Counted from the first letter of the whole stretch, positions 1,700 through 56,400 are shown. The stretch: DNA of 63,891 bases, filler included, from Chrysochromulina tobinii (GCA_001275005.1; 8 parts of 8 records of this genome joined end to end with filler, not necessarily neighbours in it), one strand, 5' to 3'. A program made the numbers and translations. Notes: a model not told the origin generated them from the sequence alone.

Positions 1700-3329
1700 T
1701 CACCCCCCTTTCTCCCTGGGCGTGGTGCTGGCCCACACCTTCCCATACGGTGTGAGCTGCTGCACTTGCTCGGCGGTGAGGTAGCGCCCGTCGACGAGGG
1801 CCTTCGCCGGGTCACTCGCCACTAGATGTACCTTACCCATGGACTGACGGTCAATCAGTTTCGTCAGTACGTGATCGACGACCCAAGCTCCAATCGCGGG
1901 CGCTCCCATCACAAGGCACGCGCCGAGCAGCTGCGGATAGTGCGCCTTGCTCACTCTGGCCACCTCCGTCCAAAACGGGATCGCGCTGAAAAAGCGTAAC
2001 GGCTCAAACTCGCGCACTTCGTAAACCGCCAAGTGGCCGCGCGACGGGCAAGCTGAGCTGTCGACCTCCTGAACCACGACCTCCATCCATCGCAGGTAGC
2101 GCCTCACGATGTCGCGCTGCGAGACGCCTGTGGGGAAGGATGGGCGCCGTGGTGAGCACTTGCATGCAGGGCAGGATCCATCTTAGGTTCGATGTCGCGC
2201 TGCGACACGCCCTTGGCCAGCAGCTTGGGCACATCCAGCGCGCGAAGGTCGTAGAAGATCACCGGGCGGCCCTCGAGGTCGTGACAAAGGACTTGCATCG
2301 CATGTGGACCCATCGCGTGCTCCAGCGCCGCCTCGGCCGTTGGATCTGCCAGCTTGAGCGCGCCCGGGCGGAGGAGCTCATGGATCCCCTCTTCTTCGCG
2401 CCAGCGCGACGATGCCGCAAAGGCTACCGCGGCCTTGGCCACGTCGCCCTGGTGCTCTTTCAGATAGCGCGCGCCGCTGTGGGCGGAGGGCGGCTGGGCG
2501 CCGAGCTGGGCGCATGCCCCGCAGAGCTTTTCGAGGCTCTGCTCCTCTGGGGTCCTCGGGCTATCCTCGGGCGCCGTGTCCGGCGTCGTCACGAACCAGC
2601 TCGCATTCCTCCAGAGCCCGCCCGACTCCCCGCTGACCCCCTTGAAGCGCAAAGCATTGCGCGCGGCGGGCGCGAGCTCGTTCTCAACGTACCACCGGAT
2701 GCTGGGCCGCGCGAGCCCGATCCCGCCCGCGTCGACCTCCGTGTACACGCCGCCCTCCACCCTGTAGAGCACCCAGTTGCACAGGACGAGGCTCGCCACA
2801 TACTCGCGCGCCTTGCCCTCGTCCGTGTGCGTCGACGGCTCGAAGTTGTGGATGCCGTTCTCGGTGACGACGACGTAGCTCTCGGGCACAGGTGGGCTCA
2901 GGATTCGGAAGAGCTGGTCGAGCACGCCACGAAGCAGCGCCAGCTGGGTACGGCCCTCTGTCGCCTCCTTTGTGGCGAGCTCGTCTCAACACTACCTACC
3001 CGGATGCTCGGGCCGTCGCCGAGCCCGATCCCGCCCGCGTCGATCTCCGTGTACACGCCGCCCTCCACCCTGTAGAGCACCCAGTTGCAGCGGAGCCTGG
3101 CCACAAAGCCGCGCGCCTCGCCCTCGTCCGAGAGCTCCGACAGACCGGTCCCACGAGCGACATGCTCATGGGTCACAAAATTGTGGATGCCTTTCTCGGT
3201 GATGATGACGTAGCGCTGGTGCGGGCCGCCTCCGCCAAAGAGGCTCTTGAATAGATCCGGCACTAGCGAGACCGCTGGAACCGTGAAAGAGGCGTTCGGG
3301 ATGGATGGCATCTGGTCGAGAACCGTCAT
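1700..3329 (-). CDS. CRAL-TRIO/Sec14-like lipid-binding protein with two tandem N-terminal domains; one intron (2128-2210) and an apparent frameshift at ~2985-3000
   Basis: ARYLKEHQGDVAKA..WREEEGI (CRAL-TRIO N), DLEGRPVIFY, HYPQLLG..MGAP (C-terminal); duplicated domain CNWVLYRVEGGVYTE[IV]DAGGIGL; splicing the GC-AG intron joins ORFs 2104-2925 and 1700-2107 in frame. Confidence 0.75.
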
Positions 3330-3755
3330 TTTCAAGCGCCCTTGAACTTGGGCATTTTGCCGAAGCAGAACCCAAAACAGCAAACATTCCTAATTCACAA
3401 CACACCGACCTCAAAGGGTGAAGGGCGGCAACACCTCGCACTCACAGTCGCTTCATTCTCATTCCTTCACAGACAAGGGTTCACACTATTAATTATCTCG
3501 ATCCTTTTCGCCGCGAATCACAGATCGACAGACACGGCACGCACGCGCTACGTAGCCGACACTACTCTGACATGCACTTGCTGAGCGGACTGAAAGGACA
3601 CGGAAGGTCACGCGATATTTCGTTGCGTTGCGTACGTGCGCGCTGATTCCTGATTCGCACGTCATGATGCCAGCACGCAACGCGTCTCGATCGTGATTCG
3701 TGTGCCTTGATATCGGCTACTTATCATCATCATCTCTCCCTGCCTGAGGCCTCGT

Positions 3756-4954
3756 CTACACGCTGCTCATGCTGCTCGACGAGAACATGCCAAACCGGAA
3801 AGAGGCGCGCACCTCGAGCCAATCTCGTGCCGCGCACCGATCGTCGGCAACCATGCGCGTGATGCGGTCCTGCTTCGCATGCTCACGTGCCGCGTAGTCA
3901 CCCACGCGTCTCCACCGACGGAGCGGATCTGCCTTGAGCGCCTGCTGCACCTGATGAGGGAGGCAATCAGCATGCAATCAGTCTCCACCGACGGAGCGGA
4001 TCTGCCTTGAGCGCCTGCTGCACCTGATGAGGAAGGCAATCAGCATGCAATCAGTCTCCACCGACGGAGCGGATCTGCCTTGAGCGCCTGCTGCACCTGA
4101 TGAGGGAGGCACTCAGCGGCGCTTGAGAGACATGCTGAGGGCAGGTCCGAGGACGATTGAAACTCAGAGAGTAACAGTAGCCCATCGGGGGGGTAGCCCG
4201 ATCGGGGGGGAGGGGGTCGGCAGCTCGGGCAGCGCTGTACCTGATGCTGCCAGACGGACACATAGTCACCAGTGGCCGCTGAGAGCTCTGAAGGCTTTGG
4301 AGCGGCCGGCGCCAAGGGCGGCGTGGGCAGCAGGGGCGTCTCGCATCGCGGCATGCCAAAGGGCGTCGTGCCAAGCTCCAGTCGGGTGAGCGTCCGTGAC
4401 TTGATACTGCTCCCCCTCTTGTGTGCATCTGCCGCGGCCGAATGCGGCCGGCTGCGATCGTGGCTGTTGAGCATGTCGGGCAGGCTGGTAGTGCTCGCGC
4501 TCGAGGTGAGAACTCGGCCGACCCGGCTCACAGTACGCGTCTGTGTCGTTGGCGTGAGCAGCTCCGCCAGCGCCTTGCGGGTCTTGTCACTCGCCTTGTC
4601 GGGCGTCGTCGGTGGCGCGGCTCCCTGGTGGTTCTCCTTATTCTCCTTGTTGACCTTGCTCCGAGCCCGAATGATGGAGTCACTGCCCATCTCTACCGTC
4701 GTTGGCGTCACCCACGCATTGGGCAGAACTGGCGCGGACGCGGTGTGCGGCATCTGCGGTGTTGAAGCGAACTGGACGATCTTGGCCACGGAGGAGCTCG
4801 CGCCTGTCGGCGTGCTCGCAATGCATCGAACGCGCGCGATCGGCGTTGGCGCGCTGGCTAGGTTGCGGCTCGTTGGGATCCGCGCGACGACTGGGGCGAC
4901 TGGCAGTGAGTTCGGAGCCTCGCGCTCAGGCAGCACGAAGAATGGCGACTTCAT
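3756..4954 (-). CDS. Hypothetical Pro/Ser/Thr-rich protein, 2 exons (intron 3951-4240)
   Basis: ORF 4040-4954 joins via CAG|GTACAG...CCCTCATCAG|GTG to VQQALKADPLRRWRRVG..., stop 3756-3758; contains KEN motifs. Confidence 0.55.
3908..4110 (-). repeat. Three tandem 73-bp units = 3' splice site + first ~42 nt of exon 2
   Basis: Units start at 3908, 3981, 4054. Confidence 0.95.
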
Positions 4955-5220: not shown

Positions 5221-8200
5221 ATGCTGCTGCGCGCGACCAGCACCCGCTCGGAGGATGTAACCCGGCCGCCGCTGGCGCAGCGCTATCGATCTTCACCTCT
5301 CGCCTCGCCAGAGATGCCCACGGGCATCACCAACATCATCTCCAACGAGGCTGCCGAGCGCTTCTCCTTTTACGGCATGAAGTGCATCCTCGTCGTGTTC
5401 ATGACCTCGCATCTTCGCGACGCGCAGAGGCAGCCGGCCTATCTGAGCGAGAAGGTCGCACTCGTCTACTACCACTCATTCACCAGTGCCGTGTACCTGA
5501 CCCCGCTCGGCGGAGCGCTGCTAGCCGAGGCGGTGCTCGGCAAGTACCGCACGGTCGTGTACCTGTCGCTCGTGTACTGCGGAGGGCACCTCGCTCTCGC
5601 AATCGACGAGACGCGCACCGGTGATGGCCGCTGGGCGCACACGTAGTTGATTGCGTCCGATGGCCACGGATGGCCGCTGATTGCGTCGCGATTGGCGCTG
5701 AGAGCCGCTGATTGCGTCTGATTGCCGCTGAGGGCGCCCTCGCTCGAGCAGGCCTCTTCGTCGGCCTCGCCCTCGTCGCCCTCGGCTCCGGCGGCATCAA
5801 GCCGTGCGTCAGCGCCGTGTTGGGCGACCAGTTCGGCGAACTCAACCAGCACTTGGTGAGCGTCGCCTTGATTGCACTTGATTGTGTACTGGTTTGCTCT
5901 GGATTACAGTGGATTGGTGAGCTCGGCCTTGGTTGAACATGGTTGCTCTCGATTGCACTTGATTGCCTCAGGTGAGCACGGCCTTTGGGTACTTCTATCT
6001 GGCCATCAATCTGGGCGCCTTCACCTCGACGTTACTCACACCCTACCTTCTCGAGCACGCGGGCTCGCATGCGGCCTTTGGCGTGCCAGGTGGTTGCACT
6101 TGATTGCACTCGTTTGCACTTGAGTGTACTTGACGTGGTAGTGCTCACCACGGCGCCCTCGCCCACACACAGGCATCGCCATGGCTCTCGCAACGCTCGC
6201 CTTCTGGAGCGGCCGTCACAAGTACAGACCTCTGATGACCTCTGATGACCTCTGATGGCATGCTGATTGCCATACCGCCGCCGTAGGTACACGCACGTGC
6301 CCCCGAATGCGAGCCGCTTCCTGATGACCTCTGATGACCTCCCTCATCAGGTACACGCACGTGCCCCCGAATGCGAGCCGCTTCCTGCGCAGCACTTGTA
6401 GCCCCGAGGGTGCCCGCGCGCTGTGCAAGCTGATCGGCTTGTTTGGCTTCTTCGCGGTGTATTGGAGCTTGTATGACCAAAGTGGCTCGGCGTGGGTGCT
6501 GCAGGTGAGCGTCTCGGATGGCCCCTGATGGCCTCTGATGGCCTCCCTCATCGCATGCATGTGAGCGGCTCGGAGTGCTTCTGATGGCCTCTGATGGCCT
6601 CTGATGGCCTCTGATGGCCTCCGATGGCCTCTGATGGCTTCTGATGGCCTCTGATGGCCTCTGATGATCACTGATGGCCTCTACTGGCAGGCAGAGAAGT
6701 TGGACAGAAGGTTCCTGGGTGTGGAATGGCTCCCCTCCCAAATCGGGGCGATCAATCCTCTCTTGATCCTCACACTCGTACCGCTCCTGCACGGCGCCGA
6801 CTTTGGCACCCCTCTCGGCGCCGTGTCGGGCGTGGGGCGCTCGGCGTTCTTCGCACGGCTCGGGCTCGTACCACGACGGCGCGTGCGGCTGGTAGGGCTC
6901 TACGAGCTCGTCGCCCGACACGGCGTTCGCGTTACGCCGCTGCGTAAGATCGGCTGCGGGCTCGTGCTCTGCGCGTGCTCGTTCCTGATCCCGCTGCAGG
7001 TGGAGGTTTGGATGGAGGCGAGCGGGTACAATCATAGCGCTGCAGCTCTGGCCGAGTGCAACGGCGCTGTTGGCGACGGCGGCGGCGGCGGTGCGCGTGG
7101 CTGTGGGCTCAGGCCCAGCATCGCATGGCAGGTGGTTGCCTTTGATCACGTGCCCACTGATTGCCCTTGATGAATACTGCTCAGTGAGGCCGAGCATCGC
7201 GCGGCAGCTCCTCGCTGATCTCGTGCCCCCTGATTGCCCTTGATGAATACTGCTCAGTGAGGCCGAGCATCGCGCGGCAGCTCCTCGCTGATCTCGTGCT
7301 CACGCTCGTTGATCTCGTCTCGATCTCGTCTGATCTCGTCTCGATCTCGTCTCGGTTTCGTCTGATCTCGTCTCGATCTCGTCTTGGTTTCGTCTGATCT
7401 CGTCTCGATCTCGTCTCGGTTTCGTCAGCTCGTCGCCTATTTCGTGCTCACTCTTTCGGAGGTGCTCGTCTCCGTCACTGGCCTCGAGTTCAGCTACACG
7501 CAGGCGCCACCGGCCATGAAGAGCATGGTGATGGCATTCTACCTCAGCGCGGTCGCCGCAGGCAATCTGGTCACCGTGGCCATCAATGCGAGCATCCTCA
7601 ACGCTGACGGCTCGAGCAGGTGAGTGCCGCTGCTTGCCGCTGATGGACTACGATGGCTTCTGATTGCTTCTGATAGCATCTCGAGTTCATCCCTGACTGC
7701 ATCTCTGATTGCCTCTGATGTGGCAGTTGGAGTGAGGTCGAGTACTATCGGTTCTTCACACTGATTGCTTCTGATTGCTTCTGATTGCTTCTGATTGCCT
7801 CCGATGTGGCAGTTGGAGTGAGGTCGAGTACTATCGGTTCTTTACACTGATTGCTTCTGATTGCCTCTGATGTGGCAGTTGGAGTGAGGTCGAGTACTAT
7901 CGGTTCTTTACACTGATTGCTTCTGATTGCTTCTGATTGCTTCTGATTGCCTCTGATGTGGCAGTTGGAGTGAGGTCGAGTACTATCGGTTCTTTACACT
8001 GATTGCTTCTGATTTACTTCTGATTGCTTCTGATTGCCTCTGATGTGGCAGTTGGAGTGAGGTCGAGTACTATCGGTTCTTTACACTGATTTCTTCTGAT
8101 TGCTTCTGATTGCCTCTGATGTGGCAGTTGGAGTGAGGTCGAGTACTATCGGTTCTTCACACTGATTGCTTCTGATTGCTTATGATTGCTTCTGATTGCT

Positions 8201-8560
8201 TCTGATTGCCTCTGATGTGGCAGTTGGAGTGAGGTCGAGTACTATCGGTTCTTCACGCTGCTCATGTTCGTCACCGCCGCCGCCTTCGTGCCGTACGCCG
8301 CGTGCTACAAGGAGAAGAGATACTTTCAAGGCCATGGGATGGACGAGATAGAGACGAGATCGGACGAGATGGAGACGAGAACAGACGAGATAGAGACGAG
8401 ATTTCAAGGCCATGGGACGGACGCGGACGCGGACGGTCCCGAGGCGGGGGCGGGGCCGCAGCCGACGTGGCGATCGTCGCAGCCGCTGCTGCCCGATGAG
8501 GTCAAGCTCGCGACGACTCGACCACGAGACGCTATAGTCGCTCGACACGAGACGCTTTAG
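5221..8560 (+). CDS. POT/PTR family proton-dependent oligopeptide transporter (multi-exon; start may be 5083)
   Basis: [12 protein letters not shown] (ExxERF), [41 protein letters not shown] motifs; introns ~5621-5751, 5856-5971, 6090-6172, 6222-6350, 6505-6690, 7132-7428, 7620-8223. Confidence 0.92.
7715..8260 (+). repeat. Seven copies of acceptor + exon start (GATGTGGCAG|TTGGAGTGAGGTCGAGTACTATCGGTTCTTYAC) separated by variable numbers of CTGATTGCTT decamers
   Basis: Direct reading; only the last copy (exon from 8224) continues into the ORF. Confidence 0.95.
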
Positions 8561-9186: not shown

Positions 9187-11115
9187 TCAGGTCGCCGAAT
9201 GCGGCGACACGCTGCCAGCATTGTCTCGCGCCGAGATCACGACCTCGCGGAGGGGGATCACGGCCTCCCCACTGGTGCTTCTCCCCCGAGCGTCGCTGGA
9301 CCTGCCCGGAGAGAGCGTCGTCCCGGGCGTTGGAGAGGGCCCCCCTCTTGAACGAGGCGAGAGGAGCGCGGCTCCGAGCCCAGTGCCGGAGCGTGTCATC
9401 TCGCGCTCGAGTGCCCACGACGGCGGCAGTGAGGCGGAGAGGCTAGGCGACGAGGTGACCTGATGAGGGAGCTCATCATGTACCATCAGAGGCGATCAGA
9501 GGCAATCAGATGCGATCAGAGGCCATCAGAGGCGTACTGAGGAGCGTTGGGAGGTGGCCAATTAGGGAGGCAATTAGGGAGGCGATCAGGGAGGCGTACT
9601 GAGGAGCGTTGGGAGGTGGCCAGCGTGGCCAGCGTGGCTACATGCATCTGGGACGAGATCAACGAGGGCGAGGTGCATCCGGGTCGAGATTGCATCTGGG
9701 ACGAGATCGACGATGGCGAGGTGAAGGATTCGGGTCCTCTGTTGAAGGCGAACTCGGAGCCAAGCTCCATCTCCGTCTCCAGCCGCGCGCGCTCGACGAT
9801 TGCAGCTGATGAGAGAGGCAGTTGGGGAAGCAATTAGGGAGGCCATCAGGGAGGCAATTAGGGAGGCAATTAGGGAGGCAATCATCTCCGTCTCCAGCCG
9901 CGCGATATCGACGATTGCAGCAGCAGCGAGATGCGAGCACATCCCGACAGAGGCCATCCGAGGCCATCCGCGGCCATCCGAGGCCATCCGAGGCCATCCG
10001 AGGCCATCCGCGGCCATCCGAGGCCATCCGAGGCACTCACCAGCGCGGATCTCATTATTAGGGAGGCAATTAGGGAGGCAACTAGGGAGGCACTCACCAG
10101 CGCGGATCTCCCGCTCGCGCGCCACTCGATGGCACAGCCCCGCATTCTCGGCCTGCAGCCGCGAGAGCTCGTGCTGCAGAGTTTCGTTACCCTTGCGCTG
10201 CTCTTCACACTCTCTCCGATAACGCTCCTGCTGCTCGCCCAGCCGATCGATCTCGCGCGTGAGGTGCGAGACGAGGAGATGCGTTCGCGCCGCCTCCTCG
10301 TCCGCCGCCGCGACGGTGCGCCCACGACGGCGCTCCTCGTCCGCGGCTGCCGAGGCCGTCGCCGCCGACGGCGACGCGCCGGCTGGCGGCGCCGTGTACT
10401 CGCACACGTGGGGTGGTGGCGGCAGGTCCTCCGCGGGGGCCATCCCCGCCGCCGCCGTCACCGCCGCCCCCATCCCCGCCGCTCCGCCGCCGCCGCCGAG
10501 GCGGCTGTCTGCGGCGGCGGCATCGGCGGCGTGGCCAGTCCAGCGCTGCAGGTGCCCCTGGATGCTCTGCAGGATCGACGACGTGTTCTCGCGCAATCTC
10601 GTCTCAAGGGCGCGCTTCTCATCGAGGACGGCGCCGAGCTGCTTCTGCAGCTTGTTCACGATGTACTCCTGCTCCTGCTCGAGCTGGATCTCAAGGTGGA
10701 CCTTCTCTTCCTTGACCTTCTGGAGCTTCTTGGTCAGCGCATTCGTGATCATCTCCTCCTCCACCTCCACCTGCCGCGCGAGCTCCTCCTTCTCCTGCTG
10801 GAGCGCCTCGAGCCTCTTCATGAGTTTGTTGGTGATGTACTCCTCCTCCTGCTCGGCCTGGACCTGCAACTGCCCCTGCAGCTGCGTCTGACGGTCGAGC
10901 TGCACCTGCAGCCGCGCTCGAGCTGATTTCTCGCGCTCGAGCTGAAGGAGCGCGCTCTGCAGCGCCTGCTGAAGCTCAGGCACAGACGCGAGCGCCAAAG
11001 GCACCGAAGCGAGGCTATCGGTCTCGGAGGCGGAGTCGGGCGCCTCTGACGGCACGGCAGACGACTCCGACGTGACCCGTTGCACAAGGTCAGGACGAGA
11101 CTCAGGCGTCGACAT
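9187..11115 (-). CDS. CCDC6/H4-like coiled-coil protein (DUF2046), introns 9806-10097 and 9460-9599
   Basis: AEQEEEYITNKLMKRL..EEEMITNALTKKL..LEQEQEYIVNKLQKQL repeats typical of CCDC6; splicing keeps the frame to the stop at 9187. Confidence 0.8.
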
Positions 11116-11291: not shown

Positions 11292-13880
11292 ATGCGGACG
11301 CATATGCTTCTAGCTCTGCTCACATTGCGTGCCGCCTCGGGCTTCTACCTGCCTGGCGTGGCGCCTCGCGAGTACCTGGATGGAGAGAAGGTCGAGGTTA
11401 AGGTCAACAAGCTCACATCTACCGTCACGCAGGTGCGCTCTGCCCACGGCCAGCGCCTTCGCCATGGCCGGCGCTCTGGCCTGCTATCGACGCGTACGCC
11501 TGCACCCGCCCTGAACAGCTGCCGTACGACTACTATAAGCTTGCCTTTTGCAAGCCCAAGGAGCTCATCAACGCGGTCGAGAACCTCGGCGAGGTCCTTC
11601 ACGGCTCGGTGATCCAGAACTCGCCGTATCAGCTCTTTGCGCAGAAGCAAGACTTCAAGGTGCTCTGCAAACAGGATCTGGACGCGAAGCAGGTGGCCGA
11701 GTTTGGGAAGCGGATTGGCGAGGAGTACCGCGTGCAGCTCATCATGGACAACCTGCCCGCGGCCACGCGCATGATCTCCGAGCTGCCCAATGGAAAGACG
11801 GTCTACATGTACGACCGTGGCTACAGGTTGGGCTTCATGGGAGCCAAGGAGTTTCCTGGCACGATCCCAAAGACGCCGTACCTGAACAACCACCTGCGCT
11901 TCATCATCAAGTACCACAAGGACGCCAAGTTCGAAGGCGCGCGCCTCGTCGGCTTCGAGGTCGAGGCCTTCTCCGTGAAGCACACCTACAAAGGCAAGTG
12001 GGGCGTGGACGCGAGCCTCACCTCGGTGCCTCTGTCGCCGGACCTGCCACCCCAGCCGATCGTGGAGGCGGGCGAGTACATCTTCACGTACGACGTGCAG
12101 TGGGAGGAGTCACCTATCCGGTGCGACTCGCGATGATCGCGCCTAGACCTCCCCACATGGGTGATTGCCTCTCTCATTCTCTCATTGCATGCTGATTGCG
12201 TGGGGTAGGAGTCACTCGTCCGGTGCGCCTGATTGCCTCTTCTCATTGCATGCTGATTGCGTCGGATTGCGCTGCATGCAGGTGGGCTTCGCGCTGGGAC
12301 CTCTACCTCTACATGGGTGACGACCAGATCCACTGGTTTTCGATCCTCAACTCGCTCGCCATCGTGCTGCTGCTCACGGGTACGCGCTTCGGCTCGGATG
12401 GCCTCTGATGGCCTCAGATAGGTTCTGAGTGGCTCTGAGTGGCTCTGAGTGGCTCTGAGTGGCTCTGAGTGGCTCTGAGTGGCTCTGAGTGGCTCTGAGT
12501 GCGTTTCCATTTTCCGCCCTCATCAGGCATCGTGGCGATGATCATGATGCGCACGCTGCGGCGCGACCTCAACCGTTACAACTCGGTCGAGGAGAAGGAG
12601 GAGTTGGCAGACGAGAGTGGCTGGAAGCTCGTACATGGCGATGTGCTGCGCCCGCCGCCGCTGCCCCTGCTTCTCTCGTCGTCGGTGGGGACTGGCATGC
12701 AATTGCTCTTTATGGCCATCATCTCGATCTTCTGCGCGATGCTCGGTTTCCTCTCTCCCGCCAACCGCGGCGGCCTTCTCACTGCGACGCTGCTGCTCTT
12801 CGTGTTGATGGGCGTGCCTGCGGGCTACTACGGCTCGCTCCTCTACAAGTCCATCAAGGGCTCGCAGTGGAAGTCGTTGACCGCTTCGACCGCCCTCCTG
12901 TACCCAGGCGTCATCTTCCTCCTCTTCTTCTGCCTCAACCTCTTCATATGGGGCTGCGGCTCGTCTGCCGCTGTGCCCTTCACCACCATGCTTGCCCTGA
13001 TCTGCATGTGGTTCTGCATCTCCGTCCCCCTCGTCTTTCTCGGCGCGTTCTTCGGCTTCCAGACGACCCTGCCCGAGCCGCCGGTGCGCACACGATCGAG
13101 ATCGCACGCCAAGGACTGCCGCATGCAAGTGCTCACCACGGCGCCATCTCTTCCCCACAGGTGCGCACGAACGAGATCGCACGCCATGTACCGCTGCAGG
13201 CGTGGTACATGGGGTTGCCGTGCACGATGGCGGTGGGCGGCATCTTGCCGTTCGGCGCCGTGTTCATTGAGCTCTTCTTCATCATGAGCTCTGTCTGGCT
13301 GCAGCGCTTCTACTACGTCTTCGGCTTCCTCGCGCTTGTGATCTTCATCCTGCTGCTCACGTGCGCCGAGATCTCGATAGTCCTCTGCTACTTCCAGCTC
13401 TGCAACGAGGATTATCACTGGTGGTGGCGCTCCTTCCTAAACTCGGGCGCGGCAGGCGGCTACTTGCTTGGCTACTCCGCCATCTACTTCCATACACAGC
13501 TTGACATGGTCGGTTTCACACCGACGCTCCTCTACTTTGGGTGTGAACGCCCCCCGTGTGCTGTGGAAGATTGCCTTTGGGTCTCCCCCGCGTGCCTCTC
13601 TGATAGCCCCGATCACCTCCCTCCTCAGGCACACGTTGATTGCCACTGATTACCACTGATTGCCACTGATTGCCACTGAGTGCCACTGATTGCACCCCTC
13701 CTCAGGCACATGTTGATTGCCACTGATTCCACTGATTGCCACTGATTGCCACGGATTGCACCCCTCCTCAGGTACATGTTGATCGCCGCCATCATCTTCG
13801 CGCTGATGACGGGTACAGTTGGTTTCATGGCCGCGTGGTGGTTCGTGTGGAAGATCTTCTCGGCCGTTAAGGTCGACTAG
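11292..13880 (+). CDS. TM9SF: Transmembrane 9 superfamily (EMP70/nonaspanin) protein
   Basis: Signal peptide then [61 protein letters not shown]-terminal KVD; introns 11433-11518, 12122-12282, 12380-12526, 13084-13160, 13541-13771. Confidence 0.95.
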
Positions 13881-17461: not shown

Positions 17462-20400
17462 ATGTCGGGCTCGCATCTCAGCCGCGACTTCTTCGAGCTT
17501 ATGTGCGCGCACACCCCAGCTCCGGCCAGTGCACGGCCAGGCACTCAACGCGAGGCGATGAAGTAACGGGACGCACAGACAGCGGGTGCGCTCACGCGCA
17601 CCAATGGGAGTGTCCTCACGCGCGCGCCATCGCCTGCTGCTATGTGCGCAGCAAGAGCATCGGCGAGTGCAAGTCGAAGCAGGAAGAGGATAAGATCTTG
17701 GCCTCGGAGGTGTCCACGCTCAAGCAAATCTTCACCACGCAGCTCACTGATAAGAAGTTGAAGGAGGCGCTCATGCGGGTCATGTATGCAGAGATGCTCG
17801 GCCACCACGCCGATTTCGGCCACATCCACGCGGTGAACATGACGCAAAAGACGAATCTCGTCTCCAAGCGCGTTGGCTACATGGCGAGTGCTGCCTGCCT
17901 CCACCCGGGCCATGAGCTGGTCACGCTCGCCGTCAACACCATGCGACGCGACGTCGCGTCGTCGAACCACGTCGAGGTGTGCGCGGCGCTGATCGCGATC
18001 CCGAAGCTGGTGAGCAAGGAGTTCCTCCCCGCGCTGCTCCAGCCGGTCCTCGCCCTCCTCGACCATGCCATGGAGGCCATTCGTAAGAAGGCCGTGATGG
18101 TGCTGCACAAGTTCTACACCATTGAGCCCGAGAGTATGGCGAGTCACACGGATAAGCTGCGGCGCGCGCTGTGCGACAAGGACCCGGCGGTGATGGGCGC
18201 GGCGCTGTACATCTTGCATGCGATGGCCGAGCAGACTCCCGCGCATCACAAGGACCTTGTGCCCTCGTACGTTTCGATCCTCAAGCAGATCACCGAGCAT
18301 CGGCTGCCCTCCACGTTTGATTACCATCGCGTGCCAGCTCCATGGATCCAGATCAAGCTGCTCAAGCTGCTGGCCCTGTTGGGCACGAACGACCAACGCG
18401 CGAGCGAGGGCATGTACGAGGTGCTCAATGACGTGATGCGCCGCGCCGACACGGGCATCAACATCGGATACGCGGTCATCTACGACTGCGTGCGCACGGT
18501 CACAACGATCTATCCGAATATCCCACTGCTCGAGGCGGCGGCGGGCCACATCGCCCGCTTCGTCCAATCGGAGAACCACAATCTCAAGTATCTCGGGATC
18601 AAGGCGCTCGCCCAGATTGTGCAGGTACGGACGAACCCACGCCCTAATCCAAATTAGGCAGGCCATGCGCCCGAGCTGCCCGGCCTGCAGCACGTGCTCA
18701 ACACGGCGCGCACCATCGCCTCTCTCGCCTCTCTCTCTCCTCTCCCCACAGGTCAACCAAAAGTACGCGCTCGACCACCAGATGGTCGTCGTCGAGTGCC
18801 TCGAGGACCCTGACGAAACTCTCAAGCGGAAGACCCTCGACCTGCTCTTCGCGATGACGAACGCGTCCAACATCATCTTCGTGGCCGACACACTCCTCGG
18901 CCACCTGCGCTCGACAACGGACCAAACCTTCCGAGGCGGCCTCGTCGACCGCATCACGCAACTCGCCGAGCGGTCAGCGCAACTCCCTACAGCGCACTGC
19001 CGAGCAACTCCCCACAGCGCACTCCCGAGCGGCGCCCACCATGCGAGCGCTCACCACGGCGCCCGGCTCTCCGCGCCTCGGCCCGCTCTCAAGCGTGCGA
19101 GCGCTCATCACGGCGCGCATTCCTCCCCTGCCCCCCTCCCCTGCCCCCCAGGTACGCGCCCGACAACACGTGGTACATTCGGACCATGAACGCGGTCTTC
19201 GAGCTCGGCGGCGAGTTAGTCCGGCCCGACATCGCCCACAACTTGATGCGCCTGATCGCCGAGGGCTCCGGCGAGGATGAGGCCGCTGACATGGCCATGC
19301 GCAAGTACGCGGCGTCGCAGTACTATGAGCTGCTCGAGAAGCCAGTGCTGCCCGACAACCTCGTGCAGGTGCTCTGCTGGGTGCTGGGTGAATATGGTTA
19401 CCTGGTCGACGGCACCCAGGTCCTCGACATAGCGACGCGCTTGTGCGGCGTCATCAAGCGCCAGTTGACGCACGTCTCGACCCGCAATTGGGTCTTGGGC
19501 GCGCTCGTGAAGCTCGTCGCCCAGCTTGGCCAGGCCCCTTCCCAGGTGACCGAGCTCGCCCAAAAGTACTCTCGGTCCGCGGACGTGACTCTCGCAAAGT
19601 ACGCGAACGAGCTGCTCGTATTCAGGGAGCACATGGACGTGATGAAGGCGGTGCTGCCCGTGGACGCGTCGTGTGAGGACCTCGAGACCGATCGCTCGCT
19701 TTCCTTCCTCAACGGCTATGTGCAGGTGACGAAGCCCTGATGGCCTCTCTTGATTGCCTCTGATTGCAGGTGACGAGACCCTGCTGGCCTCTCTTGATTG
19801 CCTCTGATAGATTGCAGGTGACGAGACCCTGCTGGCCTCTCTTGATTGCCTGCTTCCCCCTTCTTCTCAGTCTCTCCCCTTGTTTGGCTCACGATCACTG
19901 ATGACCACTGATGACCACTGATGACCACTGATGATCACTGATTGCTTCCCTCATCAGTCTCTCCCCCTTGTTTGGCTCACAGGCTGCCGTCGCCAACGGC
20001 GCCCAGCCCTACCTCAAGCGCGGTCAGCGCCCGGCAGACCTCGAGGCTGCGGCAAAGCGGGCCGCGGAGATCGCCGCCAAGCAGCCGGCCCAGCCGACGA
20101 TGCGCTTCGAGGAGTATGAGCGAGCACAGCTGCCCGTGATGTCGGCGCCACCAGCGGCGCCGGAGCCATCGGCGCCTGCCGTCGAAGAGACGCCACCACC
20201 CCTCTCGAGCGGCCTCAACACCTCAGGCGTCAAGCAAATGTGGGGCGCCGAGGGCTTCATGGGCGACAAGCCCGCGCCCGCGCCCACCCCCGCACAGGTC
20301 TTCACACCGGCTGGGGCCCCTCCGGCGGGGGGGTACCCCGGGAGCGCGCCGCAGGCCCCCCCTCGCCCCGCCGCGCCACCGGAGAAGAGTGCCGAACAGA

Positions 20401-45408: not shown

Positions 45409-45411
<3 letters not shown>

Positions 45412-46695: not shown

Positions 46696-49158
46696 TCACT
46701 TCTGGCTACTCTCTAAACTGTTACTATCCGGATACATGGCCCCCTTCATGAGCGAAAGCCCGTCAATAACGCCAAAGTCGGCATCGGTGGCCGCGCGCAC
46801 GCTCGCGAGATCGACGCCAGATGCAATCTCGCGCAGCGTGAGGCCGGAGCCGTCGGGTGCGACGTCGAAGACGCCGAGTTCGGTGATGAGCATCGACACG
46901 CAGCGTGCGCCGGTGAGGGGCAACGTGCAGTGGCGGAGCACCTTCGAACGCCCTCTCTTGTCGCAGTGCTCCATCGTGACGATCACCTTGGCGGGAGAGG
47001 AGACGAGATCCATCGCGCCGCCCATGCCTTTGACGAGCTTGCCAGGGATAAGGTAGTTGGCCATGTCGCCGTTAGCAGCGACCTGCGCCCGAGCCGAGGG
47101 TGGTCGCAATCAGAGGCGCAATCTGAGGCGCAATCAGAGTCGCAATCAGAGGCGCAATCAGAGGCGCAATCAGACCTGCGCCCGAGCCGAGGGTGGTGAC
47201 GTCGCAGGAGCAATCAGTCTCAATCAGAGGCGCAATCAGAGGCGCAATCAGAGGCGCAATCAGACCTGCATCGAGCCGAGGATGGTCACGTCGCAGTGGC
47301 AATCAGTCGCAATCAGAGGCGCAATCAGCGGCGCAATCAGACCTGCATCGAGCCGAGGATGGTCACGTCGCAGGAGCAATCAGTCGCAATCAGAGGCGCA
47401 ATCAGAGGCGCAATCATGGGCTATCAGAGTCCATCAAGCCTGAGCCCGAGCTGAGGTTGGGCCTCATCAGGCGCAATCAGTCGCAATCAGAGGCGCAATC
47501 AGAGGCGCAATCAGACCTGCATCGAGCCGAGGATGGTCACGTCGCAGTGGCCGCCGCGGATCATTCCAAAAGAGGCATCCGCGCTGAAGTACGAAGCGCC
47601 GGGCAGTGCAGTCACCTGAGTAGGGACGTACTCCGATACACTCAGCCGCAATCAGCCGCAATCAGCCGCAATCAGTCGCACTCAGCCACCATCAGATGCA
47701 ATCAGCCGCCATCAGAGGCACTCAGCTCACCGTCTGCTTGCCCGCGTTGATCAGATCGGCATCCTCTTGCCCCCTTGTGGGGAAAGGGCCGACGCCGAGC
47801 ATCCCGTTCTCGCTCTGCAACGTGATCGAGACGCCTTCGGGAATGAAGTTGCTCACCTGATGAGGGAAGCCATCATAGGTCATCAGAGGTCATCGGAGGT
47901 CATCGGAGGTCATCAGAGGTCATCAGAGGTCATCAGAGGTCATCAGAGGTCATCAGAGGTCATCAGAGGTCATCAGGCGCTCACGAGGGTCGGCAGCCCG
48001 ATGCCCAGGTTGACGTAATCTCCGTCAGCGAGCTCGAGCGCCGCGCGCCGAGCAATCCGCTCTCGGTCCGGCGTCATGGCGTCCCCTTCGGTCCGTTCAC
48101 CGGCGAGGGTGAGGCGCTCGATACAACGCTCGGACGGTCCCTGCACAATCCGCTCGACGAAGAGGCGCCATCAGCGGGCGCAATCAGATGGCGTAATCAG
48201 CCGGCGCAATCAGCCGGCGCCATCAGCGGCGCCATCAGCGGGCGCCATCAGAGGGCGCAATCAGTGAGGTGCAATCAGAGGGCGCCATCACCTGCACGAT
48301 CCGGTCGACGAAGATCCCCGGCGTGTGGATGTCGTTTGGGTCGAGCGTCCCCGCGGGCACGAGCTCCTCCACCTGCCTCGAGGAGGCAATTAGTGGCAAT
48401 CAGAGGCAATTAGTGGCAATCAGAGGCAATTAGAGGCAATCAGGAGCGGGCACGAGCTCCTCCACCTCCGCGATGGTGATCTTGCCCGCCGTCGCCACCG
48501 CCGGGTTGTGATTACGCGAGGTCATGCGATAGATAAGGTTGCCCTCGGTGTCGCCCTTCCACGCGCGCACGAGGGCAAAGTCGCCAGGCAGCGCCCGCTC
48601 CATGATGTACTCCTTACCCTCGAAGAGCTGCGACGCGCGTGGCGTCGAGCCCTTGATGACCTTGCCCGAGCCATCGGATGCGTATCGAACTGGCATGTTG
48701 CCGTGATGAACGAGGGTTCCGACACCGGTGGCGGTGAAGAAGGCCGGGATGCCCGCGCCGGCCGCGCGCATCCGCTCGGCCAGCGTGCCCATCGGCACCA
48801 GCTCGACATCGATCTCGCCGCTCAGGAATTGCTTCTCGAAGAGAGCGTTCTCGCCCACGTACGAGCCGATCATCTTGGAGATCTGCTTGCCCTGGAAGAG
48901 CAGGCCGAGGCCACGCTCGCTCGTGCCCACATTGGAGCTCACCACCGTCAGGTCGCCCACACCCTTCTTTTGCAGCGCAGCGATCAGGTTCTCAGGCACG
49001 CCCGTAAGGCCGAAGCCGCCGACGAGCAGCGTCGCGCCCGACGGCACGTCGGCGACGGCATCGGCGGCCGACGCGAAGACCTTGCCGCCGACCGGCACCG
49101 TCGACGAGCGATGCCGTCGCGCTGCGGCCAACGTCGTCATCAAGGCGCGACGCACCAT
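46696..49158 (-). CDS. OXCT1: Succinyl-CoA:3-oxoacid CoA transferase (fused A+B), mitochondrial-type presequence, 5 introns
   Basis: [52 protein letters not shown] (catalytic Glu), [10 protein letters not shown]. Confidence 0.95.
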
Positions 49159-49341
49159 GGCGAACGCGCCGTGATGGGCTACTCGAATCTCCTCGGGGCA
49201 CCTGATCTTTAGAAAGCAGCAGGACGGGGCAAGTTCAAGTCATGCATAGAGTCGGAACCACGTCGCGTGCGATGTACATGTAGTACCAAGTACCTTTGTA
49301 CTAAGGGACCCAACCTGAAGGTGTGGCCCCAGTCTGCCCCT

Positions 49342-53400: not shown

Positions 53401-56400
53401 GGAGCCGTTGCCACCTCGATTAAGCCAAGCCTTGACAGACAATCATGTGATGTTGAATCAGCTCGACCTGGGCGTGATCGATTGGATGGTAGCCTCGTAC
53501 AAGAAATGCGAATCCGATCAGGAGCGTGATTTTGTGCTCAAGATTATTCTGCAGACCCTCGTCCATGGGTGGCCCCAGTCTTCCAAGCAGGCGGACTGTG
53601 GACGTTACAAGTACTGGAACAGACTGGCACTCGTGCCGAGGAGTCGGCAAGCATTGCAAGCAGCGCTACGGGAGTACTCCGTTAACTACAAACGAGAGTT
53701 ACAAACGAGAGTCTCCGATTACACAGAATTCCTTCATAGTGCGGATAACCAATTCTACCAACAGGTGGAAGCGTGGGCACGGGAGGATGCCATCCTACGC
53801 GAGGCCAAGGAGAAGCAACGGCAGGCGCTCGAGGAGAAGAAGCAGGCCGAAATCAAGGAGCGGGAGGAACGCAGGAAGGCGGTTGAAGCGAGGCAGGCGA
53901 AAGGGAATGTTTCGTCAAGGCTCGAGGACGCTAACCCGGGGAAGAAGAAACCCTGGAGTGTGGATGAATTGGGTTCGGAGCTCTTCCGCCTTGCATTCGA
54001 GGGCGGAGATACGCGACAGCTCGAGCCCCTTCTCAACAAGGTCAGCAACCTGAGCCTCAAGAAGCGGACCAAGGTGCGCGAGTGGGTCGACGATTCGGGT
54101 GCGACGCCGCTGTATGCGGCCGCGTACAACGGCAACGTCGACGCACTCAAGCTGCTCCTACGTGCGCAGTTTGCGCCCGACATGTTCCACACCAAAGATG
54201 GCGTGACGCCCCTCTACGCGGCGTGTGACCGTGGTCATCTGGCGACGGTGAAGGAGCTCGTCAAGGGGCGTGCGGACCCGATGCTCAGCATGCGGGACAC
54301 CGCCTTCACCCCCTTGACCATTGCCGAGACCATCGCCGAGACCAAGGGGACGAAGAGTGTGCACCAGTCGATCGTGGAGCTGCTGCGTGCACACGTGAAC
54401 TCGCCGCAGGTGCTTACGGCAGCGCCGACCAAAAGCTCCGCTGTGCCGACCATGAAGACCCTCACGAAGCTTTTCGAGGACGAGGGTGAGGAGGGGGTCA
54501 AGAACAAGAAGCAACTCGAGGAACTGAAGTTGCAACTCGAGCAAGTCGGGAAGAACAAGAAGCAACTCGAGCAACTCGGGAAGAACAAGTTTGAGAAACA
54601 AAGGGCTTGGGGAGGAGGAGGAGTGATCGAGGAGGAGGGGGAGGAGGGGGAGGAGGGGGAGGAAGCGGAGGGCAGGAAGGAGGGGGAGAACAGGGAGGAC
54701 AGGGAGGACAGAGAGGAGGGGGAGGGCAGGGAGGAGGGTGGTTTCTTCACAAGCGTCGAAACACGTTCGAATGGAAAGGAGGGGGAGGAGCAGCAGCCAG
54801 AGGAGAGCCACTTTCATGTGGAGCAGCAGAGCATCGGGGAGGCAGAGCGTGAGGTGGAGCGAGTCGCTCATCGTCCGGCCTTGAGCTCGGGATTGAGCTC
54901 GGGATTGAGCTCAGCCACGCTCGACAGTGCGACCGTGCGTCCGGCCGAGTCCTTCGACTCCCTCATCACGGCCCTTCACTCTAGTGCCTCAAGCTCTGAT
55001 GTGTTGCGTGCTGCTCTGAAGCAGCTCGACTGTGTCGACGAGGACAGCCTCGATGACGCTCGCAAGAGGCGCTGGCGTGAGGCTCTGAGTTGGGGCCAAG
55101 AGCACCTCGACCACCTGACGATGAAGGAGGCCACCTCGCTCTACGCCCTGGAATGCGAGCTGCCTGTCGACCTTGGACCGAAAAGCTGCTTCTCGGCCCA
55201 CACCATTCTCGTGGTGGACAATAGCGCCTCGATGCGGCAGGTCGATGTGCACACGGGCACCGCTGAGGGCGACATCTCACGGACAGAGGCGGCTAAGCGG
55301 CTACTCACGACACACTTCCTCAAGACGCAGATCGATGCGGGCGCGCAGGCGCACGAGCGCGTGTCGCTGATCAAGATCCAGAGGGGTTCGACGAGGCCCC
55401 CGTTTGCCCTCTTCCCGCTCGATCATAGCCTCGCTGACCGCATCCTGCGCGCCATCGACGAGCCTCGAGGGCATGGCGACTACCTGCCCGCACTCGAGCT
55501 GCTCGCCAAGCTGGTGGAGCTCACAGCCCCTTTCATGAAGGAGAGCGCCAAGACGTCAATCCTCTTCTTCTCCGACGGCAAGCCCTCCGATCACATCGAT
55601 GAGCGCGTGCTGCCCGCGCACCTACGGCAGGCGCTGTCGGAGCTGCACAAGGCAGTGCAGCGGAGCGGCAGTTACATCGAGCAGTTCTCGCTCCTTGGCT
55701 TTGGCGAGGCCGATGAGGCGATGCTGCGCATGATGGCAGAGGCGTACCCCGCGCGCGTGGCTGAGTACCGCGCCGTGAGCGGGCCAGAGGGGTACAAGGC
55801 GCTTGAGACGGCCGTGACCACCTTTGCCTCGTCTGTGGCGGTCTCTCGCCTCTCGTCGGTCTCAGTGACCTTGGACAAGAAGCAGCGTGCGTTGCGTCGC
55901 GTCGACCGCTCCCTGGGCGAGCGCTTCTACCGTTACGAGGACTGCAAGGTGCTGCTCCCGCCAGAGAGGCTAATTCACCTCCATGATTGCCTCTGATATA
56001 CCCGAACGACTCTGATAGCCTCTGATGACCTCTGGTGGCCTATTGATCGCATCCCTCATCAGGTGCTGCTCCCGCCAGAGAGGCTCGGGGACTTTAACTC
56101 GGATCTGCTCAGGCTGCCTGAAGGGCACACCCTTCTGATCTCGTCCAAGCTACTTGGCCACGGCGGCGAGCGCAACGCGTTCGTAGCCTTCTTCCTGTCC
56201 AAGAACAGCTTCACCACTGAAGATGAGGAGTGGGTGGTCAAGGAGAGTCGACACGAGCGCGCGGAGCACGAAGATGACGACTTTCATCGCAAGGCGCTCG
56301 TCACGCAGCATGCGGCGCACATGCTCGCGAAGCGCTTCAACGACGATGCCGAGGCTCTCGAGATAGACGGCCTTCCGAGCGTCTCGTACATGAACCACTG

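What the first reader, a model, noticed from the sequence alone, without database searches (positions are those of the whole stretch)
2128..56085. Window-wide intron-writing signature: exon/splice-site duplication + branch-point tandem filler
Seen: introns in CRAL-TRIO, the 3756-4954 gene, POT, CCDC6, TM9SF, AP4E, GT, SCOT and the alpha-kinase (4 contigs) carry 15-45 nt copies of the adjacent exon start, exon end or splice site. Most copies are joined to sense-strand 10-12-mer repeats that contain a YTRAY-like branch motif. Copies range from perfect to decayed, implying a recurring process over time. Established: classical introners are TIR DNA elements with short TSDs, and tandem-duplication intron gain adds no foreign filler. 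Inference: a staggered break or slippage at splice junctions is filled by iterative templated synthesis (telomerase/RT-like or Pol-theta-like) of splice-competent motifs, creating or rebuilding introns.
Basis: partly seen in the sequence, partly recalled or inferred. Interest (0 to 1): 0.92.

Follow-up and report, generated by a model that had tools for sequence, protein, structure and literature searches.

The report
Hypervariable introns copying their exon edges
In this haptophyte-like alga about half of the sampled introns carry copies of the neighbouring exon edge or splice site, mostly beside short CTGAT repeats, the copy numbers differ between nearly identical strains, and the likely cause is runaway local duplication that lengthens introns and probably sometimes creates them.

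Summary
I curated 28 introns. In 15 of them a copy of the adjacent 45-nt exon edge scores above the 99th percentile of controls, and 12 exceed all 2,436 control comparisons. Copies are always in direct orientation: there are 41 local direct repeat pairs and 0 inverted. The CTGATKRC motif occurs 114 times against 9.5 expected, and 111 hits lie in introns, all on the sense strand.

Four related metagenome contigs have POT exons 97.5-100% identical to the window (all but exon 6 at 99.3% or more), yet 5 of 7 introns differ in length. Intron 7 holds 0, 1 or 6 exon-start copies. The one-copy form carries filler that repeats the intron's own last 25 nt.

The recurring process is therefore mainly tandem duplication and slippage, not a telomerase-like writer. 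A minority of short introns consist of an exon-edge copy plus a module shared with other introns, and these need a non-local template. This fits repair-templated or mobile intron gain, which remains unresolved.

No whole-intron presence/absence was seen, and no RNA data were available. An earlier scan note (e1-2577349) reported a similar repeat-flanked intron elsewhere in this genome.

The parts
2128..2210 (-). CRAL-TRIO gene intron with a GC-AG boundary. Its first 21 nt (2190-2210) copy the downstream exon start (2107-2127) at 20/21. The remaining 62 nt carry the 25-mer GCATGCAAGTGCTCACCACGGCGCC, a pyrimidine tract and CCCCACAG.
3908..4126 (-). Three tandem 73-nt units at the 3' end of predicted intron 3951-4531. 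Each unit is a 42-43-nt exon start plus the 31-nt filler CTGATTGCATGCTGATTGCCTCCCTCATCAG. The last unit runs into the exon.
   Evidence: 43/43
5621..5751 (+). POT intron 1, with a 10-mer array (TGATTGCGTC type). Its length is identical in related contig L007.
5856..5971 (+). POT intron 2. Its start GTGAGCGTCGCCTT and the internal stretch 5917-5930 resemble the exon-3 start GTGAGCACGGCCTT. The array is 30 nt longer in L007.
6090..6172 (+). POT intron 3, with the family-B core GTGCTCACCACGGCGCC at 6141-6157. It carries no exon copy and is invariant in L007.
6222..6350 (+). POT intron 4. A perfect 37-nt copy (6287-6323) of the exon-5 start (6351-6387) is followed by the 27-nt filler ATGACCTCTGATGACCTCCCTCATCAG. 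ACCTCTGATG occurs 4 times in the window and 7 times in L007.
6505..6690 (+). POT intron 5, with a (CTGATGGCCT)n array and two copies of the donor region GTGAGCG.CTCGGA. L006 has three donor copies. Lengths across contigs are 186, 221, 247 and 273 nt.
7132..7428 (+). POT intron 6. A 73-nt tandem duplication (7143-7288) is absent in L006. The intron also holds a decayed copy of the exon-7 start (7281-7321, 33/44) and 11/21/32-mer arrays that vary between contigs.
7620..8223 (+). POT intron 7. Six internal copies of the 3' splice site plus the first 33 nt of exon 8 are interleaved with (CTGATTGCTT)n. L006 has 1 copy, and L004 and L005 have 0.
9806..10097 (-). CCDC6-like gene intron. It holds a copy (9883-9920, 35/38) of the downstream exon start and a copy (10041-10053) of the upstream exon end with its donor. 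The arrays are 10- and 12-mers. L006 has three extra ~46-nt units.
12121..12281 (+). TM9SF intron 2, with weak, decayed similarity to both exon flanks and ATTGCATGCTGATTGC motifs.
13084..13160 (+). TM9SF intron 4. Its first 43 nt are a decayed copy (35/43, with gaps) of the downstream exon start. The remainder is the family-B core plus CCCCACAG.
13541..13771 (+). TM9SF intron 5. It holds two or three copies of a 59-66-nt unit ending CCCCTCCTCAG|G.ACATGTTGAT.GCC (3' splice site plus exon start), with (CTGATTGCCA)n arrays.
19726..19982 (+). AP4E intron 3. At its start are about three tandem copies of TGCAG|GTGACGA.. (the last 5 exon bases plus the donor, 19721-19851). Near its end an array block ending CCCTCATCAG is flanked by a 23-26-nt repeat (19867-92 and 19954-80) that lies inside the intron.
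27437..27505 (-). GT2-gene segment of 69 nt built only from copies of the following coding sequence. The copy at its start is 29/32, followed by 20-mers containing CTGAC. It has GT..AG bounds but is in frame within an open ORF, so it could be an intron or a coding repeat.
47083..47516 (-). SCOT intron 5. It holds about four internal copies of the upstream exon end plus its donor (best copy 35/35), each followed by (TCTGATTGCGCC)n.
47616..47984 (-). SCOT introns 4 (47616-47730) and 3 (47857-47984). Both are array-filled, with only 4-6-nt boundary repeats. Intron 3 ends in CCCTCATCAG.
48141..48291 (-). SCOT intron 2. Its last 23 nt copy the upstream exon end (21/23), including the CAG used as acceptor. 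The body is a 13-mer array.
48373..48465 (-). SCOT intron 1, 93 nt. It is a perfect 20-nt copy of the downstream exon start (GTGGAGGAGCTCGTGCCCGC) plus 73 nt of (CTGATTGCC/CTAATTGCC) array. Homologues show a 31-residue gap exactly here.
55949..56062 (+). Alpha-kinase gene intron. It is a perfect 23-nt copy of the downstream exon start plus a 91-nt filler ending CCCTCATCAG.

Best explanation
The introns here behave as hypervariable minisatellites. Tandem duplication and slippage, shown by differences between near-identical strains, copy the adjacent splice junction and exon edge into the intron beside CTGAT-type 10-12-mer arrays. The same break- or replication-repair process, with filler likely copied from other introns, has probably also created the short introns that consist of an exon-edge copy plus a branch-motif/CAG module.

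Shown:
- The copies exist, are direct only, and come only from the junction-adjacent exon.
- Arrays and junction copies change in number between contigs with nearly identical exons.
- One duplication sits between similar 12-mers.
- One new unit carries the intron's own terminal sequence as its filler.

Inferred:
- A duplicate that spans a junction survives because the outer splice sites remove it. Where the exon starts with GT, each unit could also remove itself.
- Exon duplicates that bring a GT/GC at their start and gain a branch motif plus AG become new introns.
- The enzymology is replication slippage, unequal sister exchange, or microhomology-mediated template switching.
For: 1. Cross-strain polymorphism. 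Related contigs L004-L007 have POT exons 97.5-100% identical to the window. Exon 6 is 97.5-99.1%; the other exons are 99.3-100%. Introns nevertheless differ in length. In L007, intron 2 is +30 nt, intron 4 +30 nt and intron 5 +61 nt. Intron 5 is also +35 nt in L004 and +87 nt in L006. Intron 6 is -64 nt in L004 and L005 and -137 nt in L006. Intron 7 is 604 nt in the window against 193 nt (L004, L005) and 183 nt (L006).
2. Intron 7 holds 6, 1 and 0 copies of the first 33 nt of exon 8. In the one-copy form, the last 25 nt of the filler equal the 25 nt that precede the first copy.
3. The 73-nt unit of intron 6 is single in L006, where it lies between TGATCACGTGCC and TGATCTCGTGCT. L006 has a third copy of the intron-5 donor region.
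4. There are 41 direct and 0 inverted local repeat pairs. Only junction-adjacent exon sequence is copied.
5. Array units differ between introns.
6. The GT2-gene segment is built only from the neighbouring coding sequence.
7. The downstream exon starts with GT in 16 of 28 introns, against a 4.8% GT dinucleotide frequency. The upstream exon ends with AG in 13 of 28. This is what duplication-derived junctions predict.
8. An independent record, L003, is 99.97% identical over 3,228 nt and repeats introns 1-5, including the 37-nt copy.
Against: Plain local duplication does not give the filler of four short introns: alpha-kinase, CRAL, SCOT i1 and TM9SF i4. No local source is visible for any of them. 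CRAL and TM9SF i4 share an identical 25-mer although they lie in different genes.

An 86-nt insertion at the 5' end of POT intron 7 in L004 and L005 carries 26 nt identical to filler in another gene's intron 3.6 kb away, on the other strand.

In POT intron 4, the two perfect 37-nt copies are preceded by different 3' splice regions.

The motif CTCATCAG recurs at 13 places, 10 of which I read as intron or repeat-unit ends in 7 genes.

Every POT intron spanned by a related contig is present there (L007 spans introns 1-5; L004-L006 span introns 5-7), so no intron birth was seen.

The related contigs could be alleles or recent paralogues rather than strains.

No RNA evidence shows which sites are spliced.
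Confidence: 0.55

Rival explanations
1. Short non-autonomous mobile elements (introner-like) insert into exons and introns and duplicate 20-45 nt of target. Two families are proposed. One is a CTGAT-array body ending in CCCTCATCAG. The other is a GCATGCAAGTGCTCACCACGGCGCC core followed by a pyrimidine tract and CACAG. The element brings the branch motif and the 3' splice site, and the first GT/GC of the duplicated target becomes the donor. Variable 5' ends with fixed 3' ends would suggest target-primed reverse transcription.
For: - Five introns begin with a copy of the downstream exon start, with repeats of 20, 21, 23, ~30 and ~43 nt. One intron ends with a 23-nt copy of the upstream exon end.
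- The family-B core has 13 hits against 0.83 expected. The six strongest intronic or UTR hits are all on the sense strand. A 25-mer is identical between the CRAL and TM9SF introns.
- CTCATCAG ends introns in 7 genes.
- An array block inside AP4E intron 3 is also flanked by a 23-nt repeat, although no splice-site selection acts there.
- A 36-nt repeat surrounds a 22-nt core in a 3' UTR.
- The same architecture appears in an unrelated record, L066.
Against: - The repeat lengths are too long and too variable for known transposase footprints. Introners described in print show 3-9 bp duplications (passages).
- There are no terminal inverted repeats beyond a 5-7-nt CTGATGA/TCATCAG palindrome.
- Homology between family-B members stops at the ~25-nt core. 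Family-A fillers share only 12-19-nt exact stretches elsewhere in the window, against a mean of 13.3 for coding controls.
- No RT or transposase domain was found among the 99 ORFs scanned.
- Most of the polymorphic events seen are local duplications, not insertions of a constant unit.
Confidence: 0.25
2. A staggered break at a splice junction is filled by a dedicated enzyme (telomerase/RT-like or Pol-theta-like) that writes splice-competent 10-12-mers iteratively from a template.
For: - Arrays are homogeneous within an intron, and all carry a CTGAT-like core on the sense strand.
- Array lengths change quickly between strains.
- The junctions of some fillers show 3-4-nt microhomology, read by eye.
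Against: - Units differ between introns in sequence and in period (9-14 nt). A fixed template would write one unit.
- Array growth by whole units, and duplications between short direct repeats, are what ordinary slippage gives.
- Sense-strand bias can result from selection on spliceability.
- Nothing in the window points to a template RNA or an RT (99 ORFs scanned).
Confidence: 0.07
3. The repeats are assembly artefacts of a short-read draft, or chance similarity caused by splice-site consensus and composition.
For: The window consists of short draft contigs. The six-copy state of POT intron 7 is seen only in this assembly. L003 breaks at the 73-nt repeat of the 3756 gene.
Against: - Three other records repeat the 37-nt copy in POT intron 4, and four show related but different repeat states.
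- Controls with other-gene flanks, shuffled introns, reverse complements and distant exon segments all fail to reach the observed scores.
Confidence: 0.02

Closest known systems
Intron gain by tandem genomic duplication of an AGGT-containing exon segment (review PMC3443670; passages read)
   Same: The intron edge is a direct copy of the adjacent exon, and removing one copy restores the coding sequence. Junctions are rich in AG|GT (16 of 28 exon starts are GT). The GT2-gene segment is built only from exon sequence.
   Different: In most cases here 27-91 nt of non-exonic filler (CTGAT arrays or a shared core) lies between the copies and supplies the branch motif and the acceptor. The copies are short (13-44 nt) and multiply further.
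Daphnia pulex neointrons from repair of staggered double-strand breaks (PMC4202315; abstract and passages read)
   Same: [quoted passage not shown] Many introns have internal direct repeats (55 of 90 neointrons there; 15 of 28 with junction copies here). Both are population-level phenomena.
   Different: The Daphnia repeats are 4-12 bp, whereas here they are 20-45 nt. No tandem 10-12-mer arrays or multi-copy junction units are described in the passages I read. Whole-intron presence/absence was shown there and not here.
Introners, i.e. transposon-derived introns (PMC9860276 and PMC12130899; passages read)
   Same: Sequence modules are shared between introns of unrelated genes. One splice site is carried by the insert and the other is co-opted from the duplicated target. 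All copies are in sense orientation.
   Different: Described introners have 3-9 bp target duplications, often terminal inverted repeats, and full-length similar copies. A Chrysochromulina family is described with 4-bp duplications that carries its 5' site. Here the repeats are long and variable, the shared part is only ~8-25 nt, and no autonomous element is seen.
Junction-spanning minisatellites such as the human F7 intron 7 37-bp VNTR
   Same: Tandem units whose first element spans the exon-intron boundary create strings of identical pseudo splice sites, and the copy number is polymorphic.
   Different: In human these are isolated loci. Here about half of the sampled introns in many genes are affected, at both donor and acceptor sides, and the units are interleaved with branch-motif arrays.

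Membership tests
Tandem-duplication intron gain (AGGT model) | The intron edge is a direct copy of adjacent exon sequence, and removing one copy plus the spacer restores a single-copy open frame. | tested here: met
   CRAL 20/21, SCOT i1 20/20, alpha-kinase 23/23, TM9SF i4 35/43, SCOT i2 21/23 and the GT2 segment 29/32. ORFs are open after removal.
Tandem-duplication intron gain (AGGT model) | Both splice sites come from the duplicated exon segment, with no foreign sequence between the copies. | tested here: not met
   This is met only for the GT2 segment. In the others, 34-128 nt of filler supplies the acceptor, or in SCOT i2 the donor.
Introner (transposon-derived intron) | Many near-identical, full-length copies occur in unrelated genes. 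| tested here: inconclusive
   Only a ~25-nt core (13 hits against 0.83 expected) and an 8-nt 3' motif (13 hits) are shared. The sample is 64 kb, and no genome is held.
Introner (transposon-derived intron) | A short target-site duplication of fixed length and/or terminal inverted repeats. | tested here: not met
   Flanking repeats are 20-45 nt and variable. There are 0 local inverted repeat pairs of 20 nt or more.
Introner (transposon-derived intron) | An autonomous element encodes the mobilising enzyme. | not testable with these tools
   No whole genome is held. None of the 99 ORFs scanned has an RT or transposase domain.
DSB-repair neointrons (Daphnia type) | The intron is present in some individuals and absent in others, with a single copy of the repeat at the empty site. 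| tested here: not met
   Every POT intron that a related contig spans is present there: L007 and L003 span introns 1-5, and L004-L006 span introns 5-7. The other genes had no relatives.
DSB-repair neointrons (Daphnia type) | A direct repeat of exon terminal bases lies at the opposite intron end, together with internal direct repeats. | tested here: met
   The repeats here are longer (20-45 nt against 4-12 bp).
Junction-spanning minisatellite (F7 IVS7 type) | Tandem units include the exon-intron boundary, and the copy number is polymorphic. | tested here: met
   Tandem junction units occur in POT i7, the 3756 gene, SCOT i5 and AP4E i3. Polymorphism was tested only in POT: intron 7 has 0, 1 or 6 copies, and the intron 5 donor region has 2 or 3 copies.
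Junction-spanning minisatellite (F7 IVS7 type) | Only the authentic splice site is used. | not testable with these tools
Telomerase/RT-like templated repeat synthesis | One template-defined unit is written at all sites. | tested here: not met
   Array units differ in sequence and in period (9-14 nt) from intron to intron.

The most novel reading that the evidence does not exclude
Introns breed introns without a transposase. The 3' module of an existing intron (branch motif, spacer, CAG) is copied into a staggered break in an exon or intron. The copying runs either from excised intron RNA through a reverse transcriptase or by template-switching repair. It duplicates 20-45 nt of target, and the first GT/GC of that target becomes the new donor. 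Slippage then inflates the new intron. This would be a self-propagating intron-writing cycle that is still active in natural populations.
Probability: 0.15. Interest if true: 0.9.

Novelty: new variant of a known kind. Interest (0 to 1): 0.6.

Why it matters
How new spliceosomal introns arise and grow is a long-standing open question. Few organisms show the process while its footprints are still fresh. Here perfect and decayed junction copies coexist. Related populations differ by 0, 1 or 6 copies while their exons stay nearly identical. Short introns still show which part came from the exon and which from elsewhere.

This makes the alga a candidate system for measuring rates of intron extension, and possibly intron birth, with long reads, RNA-seq and mutation-accumulation lines. 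It could also show how a spliceosome copes with strings of identical decoy splice sites.

There is a practical point as well. Such introns break short-read assemblies and mislead gene predictors.

Tried and rejected
1. Sequencing runs.

2. Whole genome. None is held, so a genome-wide survey was not possible.

3. Gene finder. My own dynamic-programming gene finder over-predicted. I left out the following:
- its antisense-strand models;
- seven 'introns' inside continuous ORFs of the Nup98/alpha-kinase contig (50706-50804, 51003-51098, 54849-54914, 57269-57461, 57543-57695, 57751-57788, 57957-58088);
- CCDC6 9272-9693 and 9150-9231;
- GT2 27314-27350.
I also corrected POT i3, i4 and i6, CRAL i1 and SCOT i1 by hand.

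4. Strict boundary test. A zero-offset, gapless boundary-repeat test found only 3 of 27 introns at a score of 15 or more, against 0 of 702 controls. It is too strict when boundaries can slide or copies have indels, so I replaced it with local alignment.

5. Collection scans.
- Scans of viral contigs and genome contigs with the family-B core gave one relevant record (L001, later fetched whole as L066) and one probable chance hit.
- The 17-mer gave 17 viral hits, which I take to be mostly chance.
- The family-A 3' end gave none.
- Protein scans of viral contigs for the alpha-kinase, TM9SF and SCOT exons gave no relatives.

6. Family A as a discrete mobile element. This is not supported by exact-match lengths.

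7. Organism. The protein search found no identical protein. The best matches are 83-86% identical, unnamed transcriptome proteins. Donors are 27 GT and 1 GC, unlike the ~60% GC donors reported for Emiliania huxleyi (PMC4028052, passages).

8. Literature. Full-text searches found no description of exon-junction copies in haptophyte introns. The Emiliania genome paper is not held. The Chrysochromulina tobin paper mentions introns once, for number only. I read no supplements.

Full report
**What the window is.** The 63,891 bases are eight contigs joined by N44-TTAATTAATTAA-N44 spacers. GC content is about 63%. Tandem Repeats Finder lists 199 rows, many with periods of 10-13 nt. No whole genome is held.

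**Gene models.** I wrote a small exon-chaining program and corrected its output by hand using reading frames and Pfam coordinates. The five SCOT introns i1-i5 were checked against two 83-86% identical full-length homologues by tblastn. Each intron falls exactly where the homologues are continuous. The first is a 31-residue gap, which makes it 93 nt long. The curated set has 28 introns, 27 with GT donors and 1 with GC. Removing them leaves uninterrupted ORFs in all nine genes tested, for example POT 597 aa, TM9SF 591 aa, SCOT 513 aa, AP4E 903 aa and CRAL 400 aa. I left out program-predicted introns that lie inside continuous ORFs or lack support; they are listed under Tried and rejected.

- Each 45-nt exon flank was aligned locally to its own intron. 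17 of 56 comparisons, in 15 of 28 introns, exceed the 99th percentile (22) of 1,316 comparisons with flanks from other genes.
- Twelve introns (scores 30-86) exceed every one of those controls and of 1,120 comparisons with shuffled introns.
- On the 27-intron set, reverse-complemented flanks passed in 1 of 54 comparisons. Exon pieces 60-105 nt from the junction passed in 0 of 54.
- Thirteen copies are of the downstream exon start and four of the upstream exon end. They are 13-44 nt long and 75-100% identical.
- 11 of 17 copies lie within 20 nt of a period 7-14 array.
- Without any gene model, and after masking short-period arrays, the window holds 41 local direct repeat pairs (20 nt or more, 88% or more, spacing 15-700 nt) in 22 clusters and no inverted pair. 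18 of the 22 clusters touch curated introns.
- CTGATKRC occurs 114 times against 9.5 expected. 111 hits lie in the 28 curated introns plus the predicted, uncurated intron 9272-9693, which together make 8.7% of the window. All 111 are on the sense strand of the host gene.

**Anatomy.** Three patterns recur.

(a) *Edge type.* The intron begins with a copy of the downstream exon start. The first GT or GC of that copy is the donor. A filler follows that ends in CAG.
- CRAL 2128-2210: 20/21, GC donor.
- SCOT i1 48373-48465: 20/20.
- Alpha-kinase 55949-56062: 23/23.
- TM9SF i4 13084-13160: 35/43.
- GT2 segment 27437-27505: 29/32.
- SCOT i2 is the mirror image. Its last 23 nt copy the upstream exon end, including the CAG.

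(b) *Tandem type.* Units of 'junction plus exon edge plus array' are repeated inside the intron.
- POT i7: six extra copies of the 3' splice site plus 33 nt of exon 8.
- The 3756 gene: three 73-nt units.
- SCOT i5: about four copies of the exon end plus donor.
- AP4E i3, CCDC6 i1, TM9SF i5 and POT i4, i5 and i6.

(c) *Arrays.* These are 10-13-mers with a CTGAT-like core. The exact unit differs from intron to intron.

Two longer motifs are shared between genes. CTCATCAG occurs at 13 places, 10 of which I read as intron or repeat-unit ends in 7 genes. The core GTGCTCACCACGGCGCC has 13 hits against 0.83 expected, and a 25-mer is identical between the CRAL and TM9SF introns.

**Related DNA.** One metagenome scan with POT exon 6 returned five close loci.
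- L003 is 99.97% identical to window 4057-7284. As a separate record it confirms introns 1-5, including the perfect 37-nt copy.
- L004-L007 have POT exons 97.5-100% identical to the window. Exon 6 is the lowest, at 97.5-99.1%, and all other exons are 99.3% or more. Yet 5 of 7 introns differ in length.

The differences are as follows.
- Intron 7 is 604 nt with six exon-start copies in the window. It is 183 nt with one copy in L006, and 193 nt with none in L004 and L005.
- In the one-copy form, the last 25 nt of the filler equal the 25 nt before the first copy. The new unit is therefore a tandem duplicate of 'intron end plus exon start' with two extra 10-mers.
- The 73-nt duplication in intron 6 is absent in L006. 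There the single unit lies between TGATCACGTGCC and TGATCTCGTGCT, which is the classic substrate of slippage.
- L006 has a third copy of the intron-5 donor region.
- Array unit counts differ in introns 2, 4 and 5.
- L006 also has three extra ~46-nt units in the CCDC6 intron.
- Introns 1 and 3 are invariant in L007.
- Every intron a contig spans is present in it, so no whole-intron gain or loss was seen.
- I cannot tell whether these contigs are strains, alleles or very recent paralogues.

**How it most likely works.**

Shown:
- Junction copies and arrays gain and lose whole units on a time scale at which most exons change by less than 1% (exon 6 by up to 2.5%).
- Copies are direct and strictly local.
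- At least two events have the signatures of slipped or unequal pairing.

Inferred:
- Any tandem duplication that overlaps a splice junction leaves an extra junction inside the intron. It is tolerated because splicing removes it.
- Where the exon begins with GT (16 of 28, against a 4.8% dinucleotide frequency), each unit 'exon copy plus filler ending in AG' is itself intron-like.
- The edge-type introns are most simply read as new introns, made when a short exon piece was duplicated around a filler that brought a branch motif and an AG.

Some fillers are not local. The alpha-kinase, CRAL, SCOT i1 and TM9SF i4 fillers have no nearby source. An 86-nt insertion in L004 and L005 carries 26 nt identical to filler in another gene's intron. 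My preferred reading is therefore break or replication repair with template switching among the dispersed arrays and 3' modules. I hold that step with modest confidence.

**Rivals.**
- *Mobile, introner-like element with long variable target duplications.* This is the main rival. It is favoured by the shared 3' ends, by a 23-nt-flanked block inside an intron (AP4E i3), by a 36-nt-flanked 22-nt core in a 3' UTR, by the same architecture in record L066, and by the earlier scan note e1-2577349. It is weakened by the very short shared sequence, the lack of fixed-length duplications or inverted ends, and the absence of any enzyme gene in view.
- *Assembly artefact or chance.* Independent records and the controls exclude these.

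**Comparison with what is known.**
- The tandem-duplication (AGGT) model of intron gain (PMC3443670, passages) shares the exon-copy logic but has no filler.
- Daphnia neointrons (PMC4202315, abstract and passages) share exon-derived repeats at the opposite intron end and frequent internal repeats. Those repeats are only 4-12 bp, and whole-intron polymorphism was shown there.
- Introners (PMC9860276 and PMC12130899, passages) share modules and co-opted splice sites, but they have 3-9 bp duplications.
- The human F7 intron 7 VNTR (PMC1557585, listing only) is a single-locus analogue of the tandem type.
- My searches of the held library found no description of this in haptophytes. The Emiliania genome paper and all supplements were not seen.

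**Verdict.** I rate this a new variant of known kinds of intron dynamics. It is of real interest to people who study intron origin, because the footprints are fresh and polymorphic.

Noticed in passing
window 8326-8419 (+): In the last POT exon a 16-nt direct repeat (TTTCAAGGCCATGGGA) flanks an 11-mer array (GACGAGATAGA)n. That array is the reverse-complement type of the POT intron 6 array. The 78-nt block is in frame, has GC..AG bounds and is present in L004-L006. It could be a coding insertion or an unrecognised GC-AG intron.
   Followed up: partly
window 13951-14044 (+): In the TM9SF 3' UTR a 36-nt direct repeat (35/36) surrounds a 22-nt copy of the family-B core (GCATGCAAGTGCTCACCCCGGC). 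This is the same footprint as in the introns, but outside coding sequence.
   Followed up: partly
window 14981-15079 (+): A perfect 45-nt direct repeat with 54-nt spacing lies between TM9SF and the UPRT gene. It has no CTGAT array.
   Followed up: no
window 2712-2786 and 3020-3094 (- strand gene): A 75-nt repeat, 96% identical and 308 nt apart, lies inside the CRAL-TRIO gene. That gene forms one 400-aa ORF over 1703-2985 once the intron is removed. The repeat may be an internal exon duplication.
   Followed up: no
window 20598-25553 (-) and 51150-52670 (+): Long coding tandem repeats are present. One is a 1,652-aa ARM/Sel1 ORF built of 123-nt and 108-nt units. The other is a set of Nup98-type FG repeats of 33 nt. 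The genome appears prone to tandem duplication in exons too.
   Followed up: no
L066 (G001) 4368-4554: An IMG/VR 'viral' contig of 4,554 nt carries a 39-nt repeat pair around (TGACGAACCC)4, followed by the family-B core and ..CCACCACAG|GTGAGT. It looks like algal nuclear DNA filed as viral.
   Followed up: partly
window, intron 3' ends (e.g. 6321-6350, 47857-47886): The terminal CTCATCAG is the reverse complement of CTGATGAG. The last array unit and the 3' splice site can therefore form a 7-bp hairpin (CTGATGA..TCATCAG). Its meaning for DNA or RNA is unknown.
   Followed up: no
window 27437-27505 (-): The GT2-gene 'intron' is 69 nt, in frame, and lies inside an uninterrupted 511-aa ORF. It may be translated as a tandem peptide repeat rather than spliced.
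   Followed up: partly
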